From the human T2T-CHM13v2.0 reference genome, Homo sapiens, in the NCBI RefSeq assembly GCF_009914755.1, contig NC_060943.1: DNA of 64,000 bases; one strand, written 5' to 3'. The notes under the pieces were generated by a model. That model saw only the letters and a program-made list of their open reading frames with translations, ran no database searches and was not told where the DNA came from. Made by a program: the position numbers and the translations under genes. Shown here piece by piece: positions 45,550 through 58,749 of this stretch (positions are counted from its first letter, which is position 1; every line of letters starts with the position of its first letter).

Positions 45550-45911
45550 CACCACATGAATCAGACACGTAAAGTTTTTAGGACAATGGCTGGCTTCAAG
45601 CCAGTGTGCAGTCCACACTATCATTAGGGATTCATGGCAAAGTAGGATGCTTACCTTCTGGGGGAGGATGTTCCCCTTGTGAACTTTCTTGCAGCCTCAG
45701 TAATCGGGCTGCAAAAGAGCAGAGGCAGGGGGAATGTTTAACTGTAAAGTCACTAGTTATAGAAAATACAGATTACCTGCAGCGACGTCTCTTTAATAGA
45801 AATGGCAGCCATGGGTTGGAGTCTGTTGATACGGGTTCTGGAGAGCTAATTTTGTACCCGTCTTCCAACTCTGTGCTCGGTGACCTCATGTTGGTAGCTT
45901 GAAATTTGCCA
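45550..45911. repeat. Intragenic duplication unit A (exon 11 plus flanks), paralogue of 56470-56815
   Basis: Shared flanks, e.g. aggacaatggctggc, aagtaggatgcttacc, ctgcaaaagag, tcttccaactctgtgctc. Confidence 0.92.
45655..45708 (-). CDS. PLA2G4C: PLA2G4C exon 11 (ARLLRLQESSQGEHPPPE), paralogue of exon 9
   Basis: ttttgcag| acceptor, |gtaag donor, 54 nt. Confidence 0.95.
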
Positions 45912-45914
45912 TGA

Positions 45915-48900
45915 TGTGATCAAGTGGGTTTCATACTAGGAATGCAGGGATGGCTTAACATATGCAAGTCAACAAATGTGATATATCACAGAAACAGAAT
46001 TAAAAACAAAAATCACAGGAGATGCAGAAGCATTTCACAAAATCCCACATCCCTTTATGATTAAAGCCCTCAACAAAATCGGTATACAAGAGACATACTT
46101 CAATGTAATAAAAGCCATCTATGACAAACCCACAGCCAACATTACACTGAACAGGGAAAAGTTTAAAGCATTCCCCCTGAGAACTGCAATAAGACAAGAA
46201 TGCCCACTCTTATCACTTGTATTCAACATAGTACTGGAAGTCCTAGCCACAGCCATCAGACAAGAGAAAGAAATGAAGGGTATCCAAACCAGTAAAGAGG
46301 AAGTCAAACTGTTAGTGTTCACTGATGATATGATTGTACACCTAGAAAACCCTAAAGACTCATCCAAAAAGCTCCTAGGTCTGATGAATGAATTCAGTAG
46401 AGTTTCAGGATACAAAATCAATGTACACAAACAGTAGCACTGCTATACACCAACAATGACCAAGCTGAGATTCAAATCAAGAACTCAACCCCTTTTACAA
46501 CAGCTGCAAAAAAATAAAATAAAATACTCAGGAATATACCTAACCAAGGAGGTGAAAGACTGCTACAAGGAAAACTACAAAACACTGCTGAAAGAAATCA
46601 TAGATGACACAAACAAATGGAAACACATCCCATGCTCATGGATGGGTAGAATCAATATTGTGAAAATGACCATACTGCCAAAAGCAATCTACAAGTCCAG
46701 TGTAATTCCCATCAAAATACTATCATTTTTCACAGAACAAAAAATCCTAAAATCCTTTTTTTTTTTTTTTTTTGAGACTTAGTCTCGCTCTGTTGCCCAG
46801 GCTGGAGTGCAATGGCCAATTTTGGCTCACTGCAACCTCTGCTTCCCAAGTTCAAGCGATTCTCCTGTCTCAGCCTCCCAAGTAGCTGGGATTACAGGCG
46901 CATGCACCATGCCTGGCTAATTTTTGTATTTGTAGTAGAGATGGGGTTTCGCCATGTTGGCCAGGCTGGTCTCAAACTCCTGACCTCAGGTGATCCACCC
47001 GCCTTGGCCTCCCAAAGTGCTGGGATTACAGACATGAGCTACCATGCCCAGCCACAATCCCAAAATCCATATGAACCAAAAAAGAGCCCTCATAGCCAAA
47101 GCAAAGACTAAGCAAAAAGAACAAATCTGGAGGCATCACATTACCCAATCAAATTATACTACAAGCCTATAGTTACCAAAACAGCACGGTACTGGTATAA
47201 AATTAGGCATGTAGAACAATGGAACAGAATAGAGAGCCCAGAAATAAAGCCAAATACTTATAGCCAAGTGATCTTCGACAAAGCAAACAAAAACATAAAG
47301 TGGGGGAAAGGACACCTTATTCAACAAATGGTGCTGGGATAACTGGCAAGCCACATGTAGGAGAATGAAACTCGATCCTTATTTCTCACCTTATACAAAA
47401 ATCAACTCACAAATTCAATGTGAATTTGCATCAAAGACTTAAATATAAGACCAGAAACCATAAAAATTCTAGAAGATAACATCAAAAAAACTCTTCTAGA
47501 TGTTGGCTTAGGCAACGAGTTCATGACCAAGAGCCCAAAAGCAAATGCAACAAAAACAAAAATAAACATATGGATATATGGGAACGATGGCTCACGCCTG
47601 TAATCCTGGCACTCTGGGAGGCCCAGCTGGGCGGATCTTCAGGTCAGGAGTTCCAGACCAACATGACGAAACCCCATCTCTATTAAAAATACAAAAATTG
47701 GCCAGGTATGGTGTTGGATGCCTGTAATCCCAGCTACTCAGGAGGCTGAGGCAGGAGAATTGCTTGAGTCTGGGAGGCGGAGATTGCAGTGAGCCGAGAT
47801 CGTGCTGCTGCACTGAAGCCTGGGTGATGGAGTGAGACTCCGTCTCAAAAATAAACAAATATATGGGACCTGAGTAAATTAAAAAGCTTCTGTACAGCAA
47901 AGGAAGTAATTATCAGAGTAAACACACAACCCACTGAATGCGAGCAAATATTTGCAAACTAGGCATCCACAAAAGACGATTATACAGAACCTATAAGGAA
48001 CTCAAAGAAATCAGCAAGAAGAAAACGAATAATCCCACCGAAAAGCATCCCAATGATATGAATAGACATTTCTCAAAAGAAGATATTCCAGTGGCCAAGA
48101 AACATATGAAAAAAATGGTCAGCATCACTAATCATTAAAGAAACGCAAATGAAAGCCACAATGAGATACCATCTTACTCCCACAAGAATGGCCATTGATA
48201 AAAATTCAAAAAAAACCATAGACGTTGGTGTGGATGCGGTGCAAATGGAACACTCACACACTGCTGGTGGGAATGTAAATTAGTACAACCTCTATGGAAA
48301 ACAGTATGGAGAGTCCTCAGAGAACTAAAAGTAGATCTACCGTTCGATCCAGCAATCCCACTACTGGGTATCTACCCAAAGGAAAGGCAGCCATTATATG
48401 AAAAAGACACTTGTGGGCTGGGTGCAGTGGCTCACGCCTGTAATCTCAACACTTTGGGAGGCTGAGGAGGGGAGATCACTCGAGGTCAGGCGTTCAAGAC
48501 CAGCCTGGCCAACATGGTGAAACCCCATCTCTACTAAAAATACAAAAATTAGCTGGATGCGGTGGTGCACATCTGTAGTCCCAGCTACTTGGGAGGCTGA
48601 GGCAGGAGAATCACTTGAACCCACGAGTTGGAGGTTGCAGTGAGATTGCACCACTGCATTCCAGCCTGGGCAACAGAGCGAGACTCTGCCTCAAAAAAAA
48701 AAAAAAAGACACATGCACATGTATGTTTATAGCAGCACAATTCACAATTGAAAGATATGGAACCAGCCGAGCATGGTGGCTCATGCCTGTAATCCCAGCA
48801 CTTTGGGAGGCTGAGGCGGGTGGATCATGAGGTCAGGAGATCGAGACTATCCTGGCTAACACCGGTCTCTACTAAAAATACAAAAAAAAAAAAAAAAAAA

Positions 48901-56469: not shown

Positions 56470-56815
56470 GCACCAAATGAATCATACATGTAATGTTCCT
56501 AGGACAATGGCTGGCCTCAAGCAAGTGTGCGGTCCCCATTATCATCAGGGATTCATGATGAAGTAGGATGCTTACCTTTCAGGGTCAGATTCCTTAACTG
56601 GTCTGCAAAAGAGTAGAAGCAGGAGGAATGTTTATCTGTACAACAAAGTCCCTAGTTATAATATAAAAAATACAGATGACCTGCAGGGATATTTCATTAA
56701 TAGAAATGGCAGCCATGGGCTCCAATGGCAGCCAATGGCTCTCGAGAGCCAATTTTGCACCTCTCTTCCAACTCTGTGCTCAGTGACCTCATGTTGGTAG
56801 CCTGAAGTTGGCCAC
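56470..56815. repeat. Intragenic duplication unit A' (exon 9 plus flanks)
   Basis: Aligns to 45550-45911 at roughly 80-85% by eye. Confidence 0.92.
56576..56602 (-). CDS. PLA2G4C: PLA2G4C exon 9, 27-nt micro-exon (DQLRNLTLK)
   Basis: ttttgcag|ACCAGTTAAGGAATCTGACCCTGAAAG|gtaag. Confidence 0.93.
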
Positions 56816-57432
56816 AGTGGGAACATTTACACCACAGGAATTGGCAAACACTACATATCAGGAATTTTGTTTTTGTTTTTTAGAGAGAAAGCTTAGCAGA
56901 CCCACTGGAGAAGTAACACTCAGACCCATCTCACACCTTTAGTTAGCCATTTGGAGGTTGGATATAGATAGATTCCCTTTTTAGTTTTGTTTTTAACCAA
57001 GCTATGGTGAACACCAATGTCAAAGAACAACATCAGCCCGGGCGTGGTGGTTTATGCCTGTAATCCTAGCACACTGGGAGGCTGAGGCAGTGAATCACTT
57101 GAGGTCAGGAGTTCAAGACCAGCCTGGCCAACATGGTGAAATCCTGTCTCTACCAAAAATACAAAAATTAGCCAGGCACGGTGGTGCGCGCCTGTAGTCC
57201 CAGTTACTCGGGAGGAGAGTTGCTTAAGCCTGGGAGGTGGAGGTTGCAGTGAACTGAGATCATACCACTGCACTCCAGCCTGGGCAACAGAGCAAAACTC
57301 TGTCTCAAAAAAACAAACAACAAAAAAAGTCAAAGTGTAAGAACTAGGACAGTGCCTGGCACACAGGAGGTCCCATGAATATACATTAAATGAATGACGA
57401 GTGGTTTAGGGTGTGAACTCAGTAATGATCCT

Positions 57433-58749
57433 AAAAATAAGATTAACATGTAATGAAACACTCCCATGTGTCAGGCTTGGCTCTAAGCATTTTACATACA
57501 TGAGGTCATTTAAACCCCACATCAAATATACGAGACTGCGACTACGTACTATTGTCTCCATTTTAGGAAGGGGAAATTGGGTCACAGAGAATTTAAGCAG
57601 CTTTCCAGAGTGAGCAGTGCAGGAGAAGCAGAGCCGGGATGTGGATCCAGGCAGACAGGCTTTGGATCAGAACCACCACACTATTCCCCTAGAGATCCAC
57701 CACCCAGTTCTCCTATAGATCCCCGCGTCTGCACTCACTGACCAGCAGTGTGGGTGAGTCACGCATCCTTCCCACGACTTGGTGGATCTCAGCAAAATGG
57801 AAGGGACAAAAGCGTCTGCCTCTTAGGGTATTAAAGGGGTTAAATGTTAAATGAGGGACCAGGTAATGATTGCTAATGTTTACTGAGTGCCGTTATCTAC
57901 CAGGCACTGTCCTACAAGCTTTCAATGAATTAACTCATCAAATATTCATAACTACTGTTATTATCACCCGCATGGCACAGAGGCAGAAACCGAGGCACAG
58001 AGAGGTTAAGTAACTTTTCGGAGGTCACAAAGCTTACATGTACCAGAGCAACATTCCTTCCAAGGGAGTCTGTACTCTCATCCACTCTGTGGTCATCCTG
58101 GCTGCCCAATTATATGAGAATAAATGTCAGGAAAAGCAGTTGCTAGAACAATTACACACAGGTCTCTCTTCTGCCATGAGTAGGAAAAGTACTGTGAATC
58201 TCCTTGCATAAAATATCTCTAGGCTTTGACCTTTCTGTTCCCCAAATACTCACCAAAAATGTATTCCCTAATGACTTCAGTGTTACCAAGAGCACTTCCC
58301 CATAAACCTGCCAAGAAAAGAGCAATAAAATTCAAACATTCTCCATCACGTGACTGTCATGTTTGATATTCAAAGCACCAGCAGACTGGCATAAAGCACT
58401 GCAGGGATCTGCAGCAGGAAGAAAGATCTTTCTTCCATTCCATAAATATTTATGAAGCAATTAGTGGGCACCCGGCACTCTTCTGGCTGTTGGAATAGAG
58501 CAGTAAACAAGACAGATAAAGTCCTTGTCCTCACGAACCTTCTATGGGTGGAGCCAGCCGGGCACTGTAGACTGGCTACCCCAAGGCCATTTCAAGCTCC
58601 TGTCCATGCCAACCCTTCTCAGCACACAGGCAGGAAGGGCAAATATTTCCCAGCCTCCCTTGCAGCTAGGGGACGGTCAAGCTCTGGTCCATGCACACTG
58701 CTGGGGGGACTTCTGCAAAGTGCTTGTTCTCCTTCTCAGAAGGAGCAGG
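57433..58749. repeat. Intragenic duplication unit B' (exon 8 plus flanks)
   Basis: Aligns to 51033-53437. Confidence 0.95.
58254..58307 (-). CDS. PLA2G4C: PLA2G4C exon 8 (GLWGSALGNTEVIREYIF)
   Basis: ggcag| acceptor, |gtgagt donor, 54 nt; conserved cPLA2 GxWGSA motif. Confidence 0.95.

What the first reader, a model, noticed from the sequence alone, without database searches (positions are those of the whole stretch)
45550..58749. PLA2G4C exons 8+9 and 10+11 are an intragenic tandem duplication of a two-exon module
Seen: 57433-58749 (around exon 8) aligns colinearly with 51033-53437 (around exon 10), and 56470-56815 (exon 9) aligns with 45550-45911 (exon 11), including non-repeat intron. Exons 8 and 10 are both 54 nt, phase 1-1, begin GTTTATGG and end ATTTTTG. 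Exon 9 (27 nt) and exon 11 (54 nt) share splice flanks. Alu and L1 insertions are specific to one copy, and distal flanks are about 80-88% identical by eye. Known: exon 8 keeps the cPLA2-family GxWGSA motif, which precedes the lid segment of the cap region in cPLA2-alpha. Inference: a primate-era duplication, older than the AluS insertions, added about 36 aa to the cap/lid of cPLA2-gamma. I do not recall this being described.
Basis: partly seen in the sequence, partly recalled or inferred. Interest (0 to 1): 0.85.

Follow-up and report, generated by a model that had tools for sequence, protein, structure and literature searches.

The report
Catarrhine two-exon duplication in PLA2G4C
Two small neighbouring exons of the human phospholipase gene PLA2G4C were copied in tandem before Old World monkeys and apes split, so the enzyme's flexible cap carries a fast-evolving extra segment not seen in the other mammals examined.

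Summary
A roughly 2-kb segment carrying two phase 1-1 exons (58254-58307 and 56576-56602) is repeated head to tail as 52948-53001 and 45655-45708. Five colinear blocks share unique intron (213 mismatches in 1626 aligned bases). In the whole genome each of the two exon blocks searched matches full-length at only these two places.

All 30 catarrhine-type proteins fetched carry the second-copy motif, the first, or both; 25 carry both. None of 92 other vertebrate PLA2G4C proteins has the second-copy motif. The duplication therefore predates the ape/Old World monkey split and postdates the split from tree shrew and Glires. New World monkeys, tarsier and lemurs could not be tested.

New points:
- An old L1 5' fragment fills the junction between the copies to within about 6 bp.
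- Divergence is mosaic: 3.5% beside exon 8/10, 15% elsewhere, 30% in the exons.
- The inner exons (9 and 10) are the derived ones, so the net gain in human is 27 aa.
- Catarrhines also lost other cap exons, so their cap is shorter than in other mammals.
- The second module evolves fast and is modelled with low confidence.

No description of the duplication turned up in the papers searched. It is a new member of a known kind and of moderate interest.

The parts
56465..58753 (-). Copy 1 of the duplicated segment (exon 8, intron, exon 9); contains one later Alu at 57038-57328
   Evidence: Colinear blocks; boundaries
58254..58307 (-). Exon 8 (54 nt, residues 237-254); keeps the GLWGSA motif, whose G240 and S241 are invariant in 35 orthologs
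56576..56602 (-). Exon 9 (27 nt, residues 255-263); shortened paralog of exon 11 with the same splice flanks
45542..53440 (-). Copy 2 of the duplicated segment (exon 10, intron, exon 11), expanded to 7.9 kb by about ten Alus and L1 pieces
52948..53001 (-). Exon 10 (54 nt, residues 264-281); paralog of exon 8 with 16/54 differences; motif changed to GLWRRA
45655..45708 (-). Exon 11 (54 nt, residues 282-299); keeps the 18-aa length of the single outgroup exon
53443..56464 (+). Old L1 fragment (intact 5' end, 5'UTR, start of ORF1; no 3' part or poly-A) filling the junction between the copies; later Alu inside at 55542-55843
   Evidence: Pfam L1 ORF1 domain just downstream in another genomic copy
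58308..58680 (-). Low-divergence tract just upstream of exon 8 (partner about 53002-53372 upstream of exon 10); with 58222-58253 it has 14/398 mismatches against 175/1147 elsewhere
   Evidence: tract limits chosen after seeing the data
51251..51657 (.). Copy-2-only insertion carrying an Alu (51328-51627)
   Evidence: Copy-1 blocks abut at 57594/57585; Alu non-CpG divergence 5.5%
51932..52554 (.). Copy-2-only insertion carrying an older Alu (51974-52237) and Alu fragments
   Evidence: Copy-1 blocks abut at 57889/57873; Alu non-CpG divergence 10.1%
58749..58912 (+). Monomer-sized Alu-like element with poly-A, starting at the outer boundary of copy 1

Best explanation
Shown. A roughly 2-kb genomic segment holding two symmetric (phase 1-1) cap-region exons of PLA2G4C was duplicated head to tail. 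This happened after the primate lineage left tree shrews and Glires and before apes and Old World monkeys split. Both copies are spliced in frame into the main mRNA. The outer exons keep ancestral features: exon 8 has the GLWGSA motif and exon 11 has the 18-aa length. The inner exons are derived: exon 9 lost 27 nt, and exon 10 replaced the invariant Gly-Ser of the motif with Arg-Arg. An L1 5' fragment sits exactly at the junction between the copies.

Inferred.
- The event was physically coupled to that L1, or to a breakpoint in it (about 35%).
- Patches of flanking intron were later homogenised by gene conversion that stopped at the diverged exons (about 55%).
- The age is roughly 40-60 My, on the anthropoid or catarrhine stem.
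- The extra segment is a tolerated, fast-evolving, consistently cationic helix-prone stretch in the flexible cap. It may add membrane affinity to an enzyme that has no C2 domain (about 25-30%). Otherwise it is a near-neutral passenger.
For: - Colinear unique homology. The two exon blocks match full-length only at these two genome places.
- In-frame splicing: exon phases; the RefSeq Select transcript in the hub table lists all four exons; 541-aa proteins from a transcript-like source carry both modules.
- Phyletic pattern: of 30 catarrhine-type proteins, 25 have both motifs, 3 only the second and 2 only the first (these five are isoforms). Of 92 other proteins, 0 have the second-copy motif, 68 have one first-type motif, 22 have none under my regex (variant spellings, skipped exon or partial models) and 2 have two. 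Both doubles were checked. One is a spurious N-terminal match. The other is a lizard model that repeats a much larger stretch.
- Orthology across catarrhines: exon 10 types resemble one another, not exon 8.
- Ancestral vs derived exons.
- L1 at the junction: 53443-56464 is one L1 5' piece. Homology between the copies ends at about 53440 and starts at about 56463-56470.
- Mosaic divergence: low tract 14/398, exon 16/54, rest 175/1147. The longest identical run is 79, against a permutation mean of 41.7, and 10 of 5000 shuffles reach it.
- Cationic character: read by eye. Exon-10-type 18-mers have net charge +3 to +4 in 7 of 7 read; exon-8-type or single-copy 18-mers have -1 to +2 in 7 of 7 read.
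Against: - Dating: no platyrrhine, tarsier or strepsirrhine protein was returned by any of the three searches, so the upper bound is loose. The closest non-catarrhine protein, P0042, is unnamed and its place is unresolved (with Tupaia, SH-aLRT 87, quick tree).
- Clock: the age depends on which blocks are unconverted (8.9% to 18%) and on calibration values I recall rather than computed.
- L1 coupling: the fragment has no 3' end, poly-A or endonuclease motif at a breakpoint. Its relatives are only 71-80% identical, so it may be older than the duplication.
- Function: pN 0.324 against pS 0.277 for exon 8 vs 10. Human vs macaque-like is 24/36 identical and human vs gibbon 16/36 in exons 10+11, against more than 90% elsewhere. 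Predicted isoforms lacking one module exist.
- Statistics: the low-tract boundaries were chosen after looking, so its Fisher P (1.8e-11) is inflated.
Confidence: 0.85

Rival explanations
1. The duplication is real, but the second module has no function. It is a near-neutral insertion tolerated in a disordered cap loop.
For: pN/pS is about 1.2 for exon 8 vs 10. Exons 10+11 are 24/36 identical to the macaque-like protein and 16/36 to gibbon, while the rest of the protein is above 90%. pLDDT is below 50 over 262-336. Isoforms skip either module. Exon 9 length drifts among catarrhines.
Against: The second module is present in all nine catarrhine genera seen, after at least 25-30 My by my recalled dates. 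The frame stays open. The WRR start and net positive charge are kept despite rapid change (by eye). Great apes conserve it: gorilla 34/36 and orang-utan 34/36.
Confidence: 0.5
2. Origin mechanism: the tandem duplication was made by, or together with, an L1 event. Either L1 cDNA bridged sister chromatids, or a very long target-site duplication formed. The L1 3' part was lost later.
For: The L1 fragment is flush, within about 6 bp, with both inner ends of the copies. L1-bridged tandem duplications are documented in tumours (PMC7058536, passages read).
Against: No poly-A, 3' end or endonuclease motif is present. A 5'-intact, 3'-truncated L1 is not a normal retrotransposition product. The fragment's 71-80% identity to its relatives suggests it may predate the duplication. 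A resident L1 that merely hosted one breakpoint explains the same picture only if its other copy was later lost.
Confidence: 0.35
3. The low-divergence tract next to exons 8 and 10 reflects purifying selection on intronic splicing or regulatory sequence kept in both copies, not gene conversion.
For: The tract lies directly upstream of both acceptor sites, and the donor flank is also identical (79-nt run at 58260-58182).
Against: About 370 bp at 3.5% against a 15% background is far more than branch point and polypyrimidine tract need. The mosaic has several patches.
Confidence: 0.3
4. The duplication is ancient (eutherian or older), and one module was lost repeatedly outside primates.
For: Baseline paralog divergence is fairly high (15-18%). 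The synonymous difference in the exon is 0.28.
Against: 0 of 92 non-catarrhine proteins carry the second-copy motif, across Glires, Scandentia, Afrotheria, marsupials, a monotreme and reptiles. This would need many independent losses. Unique intron still aligns at 82-91%, which is not expected after 90 My or more.
Confidence: 0.03
5. The similarity is produced by interspersed repeats rather than by a segmental duplication.
For: Each block contains a short old repeat (query positions 8-173 and 288-381). The region is Alu-rich.
Against: About 690 bp and 290 bp of the two blocks match nowhere else in the genome except the partner. The old repeats lie at the same positions in both copies, so they were copied along with the segment.
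Confidence: 0.01

Closest known systems
Tandem exon duplication in animal genes (survey: Ivanov and Pervouchine 2022, PMC9013439; search listing and abstract only)
   Same: Adjacent homologous exons of equal length and phase, made by local genomic duplication.
   Different: Here a two-exon unit was copied, not a single exon. Both copies are included together in the main transcript rather than being mutually exclusive. The supplements of that survey could not be opened, so I cannot say whether the gene is listed there.
Primate-specific noncoding element in PLA2G4C intron 14 (Plunkett et al. 2010, PMC3017005; passages read)
   Same: Same gene. Same bracket in that paper: present in chimpanzee, gorilla, orang-utan and macaque, absent in lemur, bushbaby and tarsier. 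Both point to remodelling of this gene in higher primates.
   Different: That element is a 130-bp noncoding copy of a chromosome 1 sequence, and the paper states its duplication did not include coding sequence. It does not mention the exon 8-11 repeat in the passages I read.
L1-bridged tandem duplications in tumour genomes (Rodriguez-Martin et al. 2020, PMC7058536; passages read)
   Same: An L1 sequence sits at the junction of two direct tandem copies.
   Different: Those events keep the L1 3' end, poly-A and an endonuclease motif, and they are somatic and megabase-sized. Here the L1 piece is the 5' end only, the unit is about 2 kb, and the event is germline and fixed.
Cap and lid of cPLA2-alpha and cPLA2-delta (PDB 1CJY, 5IZ5, 5IXC)
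   Same: Sequence homology of the 541-aa protein to these structures runs up to residue 242-243, inside the GLWGSA motif of exon 8, and resumes at 375 (shown for the delta chains). The duplicated module therefore starts where the divergent cap begins.
   Different: Residues 244-374 have no detectable sequence match to the solved cap or lid. That the alpha lid spans residues 413-457 is recalled, not tested. cPLA2-gamma has no C2 domain (recalled).

Membership tests
Intragenic tandem (segmental) exon duplication | Colinear same-strand homology that includes non-repeat intron, not just the exons | tested here: met
   Five colinear blocks, 1626 aligned bases; the two exon blocks unique to the two places genome-wide
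Intragenic tandem (segmental) exon duplication | Both copies used as exons in frame | tested here: met
   Phase 1-1 and lengths divisible by 3; all four exons in the RefSeq Select transcript (hub table); proteins with both modules
Intragenic tandem (segmental) exon duplication | Single copy in outgroups | tested here: met
   0 of 92 non-catarrhine proteins have the second-copy motif. This is protein level only, and no platyrrhine, tarsier or lemur was available.
Mutually exclusive homologous exons | Exactly one of the duplicated exons is included per transcript | tested here: not met
   The main transcript and 25 of 30 catarrhine-type proteins carry both modules. Single-module forms exist only as minor predicted isoforms.
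L1-mediated tandem duplication | L1 sequence at the junction of the two copies | tested here: met
   53443-56464 is one L1 5' piece, flush with both inner ends
L1-mediated tandem duplication | L1 3' end with poly-A and an endonuclease motif at a breakpoint | tested here: not met
   Neither junction has a poly-A or poly-T; the fragment ends at the start of ORF1
Gene conversion between the paralogous segments | Mosaic of low- and high-divergence tracts beyond chance | tested here: met
   Heterogeneity chi-square 27.2, P 1.8e-5. Longest identical run 79, reached by 10 of 5000 shuffles.
Gene conversion between the paralogous segments | Copies cluster by species rather than by copy in the converted tract | not testable with these tools
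cPLA2 (PF01735) conserved GxWGSA motif | Gly and Ser of the motif invariant | tested here: met
   Exon 8: G240 and S241 are invariant in 35 orthologs. Exon 10 does not meet it, having Arg-Arg at those places.

The most novel reading that the evidence does not exclude
A germline L1-coupled event duplicated a two-exon coding module in a stem anthropoid or catarrhine. Selection then turned the inner copy into a cationic amphipathic segment that strengthens membrane association of the C2-less, prenylated cPLA2-gamma. This was part of a wider rebuild of the enzyme on that lineage: loss of other cap exons, and truncation of a C-terminal domain to create the CAAX end. The exons resisted gene conversion that homogenised their flanks.
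Probability: 0.2. Interest if true: 0.65.

Novelty: new member of a known kind. Interest (0 to 1): 0.45.

Why it matters
Human cPLA2-gamma differs from the rodent enzyme used as its model, and not only by point changes. Its cap has been rebuilt: a duplicated two-exon module was gained and other cap exons are absent. Its C-terminus ends at a stop codon that leaves a relic of a further domain in the 3'UTR. The cap borders the active site in the solved relatives. These lineage-specific differences could therefore bear on substrate access and membrane binding, and on how far mouse data transfer to human work on this gene in lipid remodelling, parturition and infection.

The locus is also a compact natural example of three things. 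One is an exon-module duplication with a retroelement exactly at the junction. The second is flanks more alike than the exons they surround. The third is symmetric exons that allow the ancestral one-module form to persist as an isoform.

Tried and rejected
- Lost cap exons. tblastn of four outgroup proteins against the window found no relic of the cap exons that catarrhines lack, so their fate (deletion or decay) is open.
- Structure. An AlphaFold2 model from a 35-row alignment has mean pLDDT 65 and is below 50 over 262-336. The modules come out helical but unreliable, so I ran no fold search and draw no structural conclusion.
- Tree. The run stopped at the quick stage. P0042 groups weakly with Tupaia, so it gives no primate-internal upper bound.
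- More primates. A third protein search for short fragments returned 3 proteins, none from further primates.
- Alu typing. It was not possible without reference consensuses. Divergence from a consensus of 55 window Alus gives only relative ages.
- NAHR model. I rejected NAHR between flanking L1s, because no matching L1 5' sequence lies outside either copy.
- L1 pieces around exon 11. A model in which they are LTRs of one element was rejected, because the pieces are L1 ORF2 and the sequence between them is the unique exon-11 block.
I stopped that step and give only by-eye charge counts.
- Translation error. One Pfam call failed on a frame with stops. I repeated it with open frames only.

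
Full report
**Observation.** A self-comparison of 43-60 kb, repeated with Alus masked and sensitive settings, gives five colinear same-strand blocks. They link the surroundings of exons 8 and 9 (56463-58753) to those of exons 10 and 11 (45542-53440). Counting substitutions only, the blocks differ at 76/854, 50/273, 10/71, 11/97 and 61/343 sites. 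The 74-75% figures that BLAST gives for two blocks are mostly indel columns. One search also gave four matches off the chain, which I read as old repeats.

Exons 8 and 10 are 54 nt with identical first 8 and last 7 bases. All four exons begin at codon position 2. Exons 9 and 11 share acceptor and donor flanks and differ by 27 nt of gaps inside the exon. In the 18-exon RefSeq transcript of the hub table they would be exons 9-12.

**Not a repeat artefact.** The window's own genome is held. The 866-bp exon-10 block matches full-length at 2 of 40 scored places, which are itself and the exon-8 block at 89%. The other 38 matches cover only query positions 8-173. The 381-bp exon-11 block matches itself and, over positions 1-370, the exon-9 block (2 of 36 scored places); the other 34 cover only positions 288-381. 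Each block thus holds a short old repeat at the same place in both copies, copied along with about 690 and 290 bp of otherwise unique DNA.

**Who has it.** Three protein searches returned 124 proteins. The tally covers the first 122.
- Of 30 catarrhine-type proteins, 25 carry both the first-copy motif (GLWGSA type) and the second-copy motif (WRR type). These come from Homo, Pan, Gorilla, Pongo, Hylobates, Symphalangus, Macaca, Chlorocebus and Cercocebus, plus three unnamed proteins at least 90% identical.
- Three carry only the second motif and two only the first. These five are predicted isoforms that skip exons.
- Of 92 other proteins (Glires, tree shrew, Afrotheria, marsupials, echidna, reptiles, a fish), none has the second-copy motif.
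- Among those 92, 68 have one first-type motif and 22 have none under my pattern (variant spellings in marsupials, skipped exon or partial models).
- Two have two matches. One is a chance match in an N-terminal extension. The other is a lizard model that repeats a much larger stretch including the preceding exon's sequence.

No platyrrhine, tarsier, strepsirrhine or laurasiatherian protein was among the best 120 of 431 listed. The closest non-catarrhine protein, P0042 (65% identity, unnamed), has one module. Its place in a quick tree is unresolved (with Tupaia, SH-aLRT 87). The event therefore lies after the split from tree shrews and Glires and before the ape/Old World monkey split.

**Which exons are derived.** The outgroups have one GLWGSA exon followed by one 18-aa exon.
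- Human exon 8 keeps the motif, whose Gly240 and Ser241 are invariant in a 35-ortholog alignment.
- Exon 11 keeps the 18-aa length.
- Exon 10 has Arg-Arg in place of Gly-Ser, and exon 9 is 9 aa.
- The inner pair is therefore the derived insert, 27 aa in human. A predicted chimpanzee isoform that joins exon 8 directly to exon 11 restores the ancestral layout.

Catarrhines lack further cap exons that the outgroups have, and tblastn finds no relic of them in the window. The stretch between two conserved anchors is 166 residues in human against 196-207 in most others. The cap was rebuilt rather than simply lengthened.

**Junction.** The 3 kb between the copies is one interspersed element. 53441-55541 and 55844-56470 match thousands of genomic places, and they lie side by side at other loci. 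In another copy, L009, the matched part (1001-3747) is followed by an open frame with the L1 ORF1 domain (Pfam PF02994, E 8.9e-27). The fragment therefore runs from an intact L1 5' end (53443) to the start of ORF1 (56464) on the + strand. It has a later Alu at 55542-55843 and no 3' part or poly-A.

Homology between the copies ends at about 53440 and begins at about 56463-56470. The L1 piece thus fills the tandem junction to within about 6 bp. L1 sequences at tandem-duplication junctions are known from tumours (PMC7058536, passages read), but those keep the 3' end, poly-A and endonuclease motif, which is not the case here. The fragment's relatives are only 71-80% identical, so it may be older than the duplication. 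I hold L1 coupling at about 35%. The outer boundary of copy 1 coincides with the start of a monomer-sized Alu-like element (58749-58912).

**Mosaic divergence.** Over the chain, 213 of 1626 aligned sites differ, but unevenly.
- About 370 bp just upstream of exon 8/10, plus 32 bp downstream, have 14/398 differences.
- Exon 8/10 has 16/54, and the aligned part of exon 9/11 has 8/27.
- The rest has 175/1147.

Exon against its own block's intron gives Fisher P 8.5e-6, and exon against the rest gives P 0.012. Block heterogeneity gives chi-square 27.2, P 1.8e-5. The longest identical run is 79, against a shuffle mean of 41.7, and 10 of 5000 shuffles reach it. The tract limits were chosen after looking, so the tract P value is inflated.

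Synonymous and nonsynonymous differences in the exon are both high (pS 0.277, pN 0.324). The simplest reading is later gene conversion of the flanks that did not cross the diverged exons. Constraint on the intron is the rival reading.

**Age.** Clean copy-2-only insertions carry Alus with 5.5% and 10.1% non-CpG divergence from a consensus of the window's 55 Alus. The duplication is therefore older than those insertions, and one of them is in the older quarter of local Alus. Using neutral-divergence values that I recall rather than computed, paralog divergence of 9-18% suggests about 40-60 My. This predicts two modules in platyrrhines if they keep the gene, and one in strepsirrhines.

**Function.** Sequence homology to solved cPLA2 structures stops at residue 242-243 and, in the delta alignments shown, resumes at 375. 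The module opens the divergent cap. The AlphaFold2 model is unreliable there (pLDDT below 50 over 262-336).

The second module evolves fast. Exons 10+11 are 24/36 identical between human and the macaque-like protein and 16/36 between human and gibbon, against more than 90% elsewhere. They are 34/36 in gorilla and in orang-utan. Read by eye, exon-10-type peptides keep a net charge of +3 to +4 in 7 of 7 species read, against -1 to +2 for exon-8-type or single-copy peptides in 7 of 7. A cationic membrane-facing helix is a reasonable but untested idea (25-30%). A near-neutral passenger is about as likely or more so.

**Prior description.** Full-text searches pairing PLA2G4C with 'exon duplication', 'duplicated exons' and 'intragenic duplication' found no paper.
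- The pairing with 'tandem duplication' found 4 papers, of which 3 were listed. None concerns this by title and abstract, and I read one passage.
- 'cPLA2gamma' with 'duplication' found 2 unrelated papers.
- A five-term search listed 10 papers, none of which holds the gene name.
- Plunkett et al. 2010 (passages read) describe a different element: a noncoding copy of a chromosome 1 sequence in intron 14.

The library lacks most subscription journals, including the original cloning papers. The claim is therefore 'not found', not 'not in print'.

**Verdict.** This is a real, fixed, catarrhine-wide tandem duplication of a two-exon module. It is a new member of a well-known kind, with an unusual junction and an unusual divergence pattern. 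Interest is moderate.

Noticed in passing
window 15871-16221 (- strand, 3'UTR of PLA2G4C): Beyond the CCLA stop codon, the 3'UTR still reads as the C-terminal domain (about 120 aa) of non-primate orthologs. It is 64% identical to P0042 over 117 aa, with two in-frame stops counting the CCLA stop itself. The human CAAX end seems to come from a premature stop in a formerly longer last exon.
   Followed up: partly
window 45079-45460 and 46356-46736: Two L1 ORF2 pieces, 99.2% identical to each other and at most 91% to other genomic copies, lie in direct orientation either side of the exon-11 block. 45923-46736 is one contiguous L1 piece with RVT_1. A predicted chimpanzee isoform (P0012) has the exon-11 peptide twice in a row, as unequal exchange between such pieces would give.
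   Followed up: partly
proteins P0025, P0026 (gibbons) vs P0005: Gibbon exons 10-11 and the start of exon 12 differ from human far more than the rest of the protein (16/36 identical against about 91% in the C-terminal part). This is more than I would expect from neutral change; no expectation was computed.
   Followed up: no
tree of 23 orthologs: The catarrhine stem branch is very long (0.46 changes per column, against a median terminal branch of 0.22). This fits a burst of change in the whole protein on that lineage. It comes from a quick tree only.
   Followed up: no
window 56603-56635 (- strand, upstream of exon 9): Pan and Gorilla predicted isoforms extend exon 9 by 11 residues through an upstream acceptor. 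A macaque isoform (P0021) skips exon 8 and reads on from exon 7 into the intron.
   Followed up: partly
window 44191-44325 vs 52332-52463: There is an inverted 135-nt match at 94.8%, beside Alus that are themselves only 82% alike. It is unexplained.
   Followed up: no
window 59072-59793: An inverted pair of Alus faces each other (74% over 753 columns), just upstream of copy 1.
   Followed up: no
protein P0036 (unnamed) and P0053 (rabbit): P0036 joins EF-hand domains to the PLA2 domain, perhaps a read-through model with the neighbouring CABP5-like gene. The rabbit ortholog's C-terminal part carries Pfam PF06369 in the precomputed column.
   Followed up: no
protein lists: No laurasiatherian, xenarthran, platyrrhine or strepsirrhine PLA2G4C is named among the hits. 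Plunkett et al. cite a reported deletion of the gene in cattle, and a dog study predicts a relocated copy.
   Followed up: no
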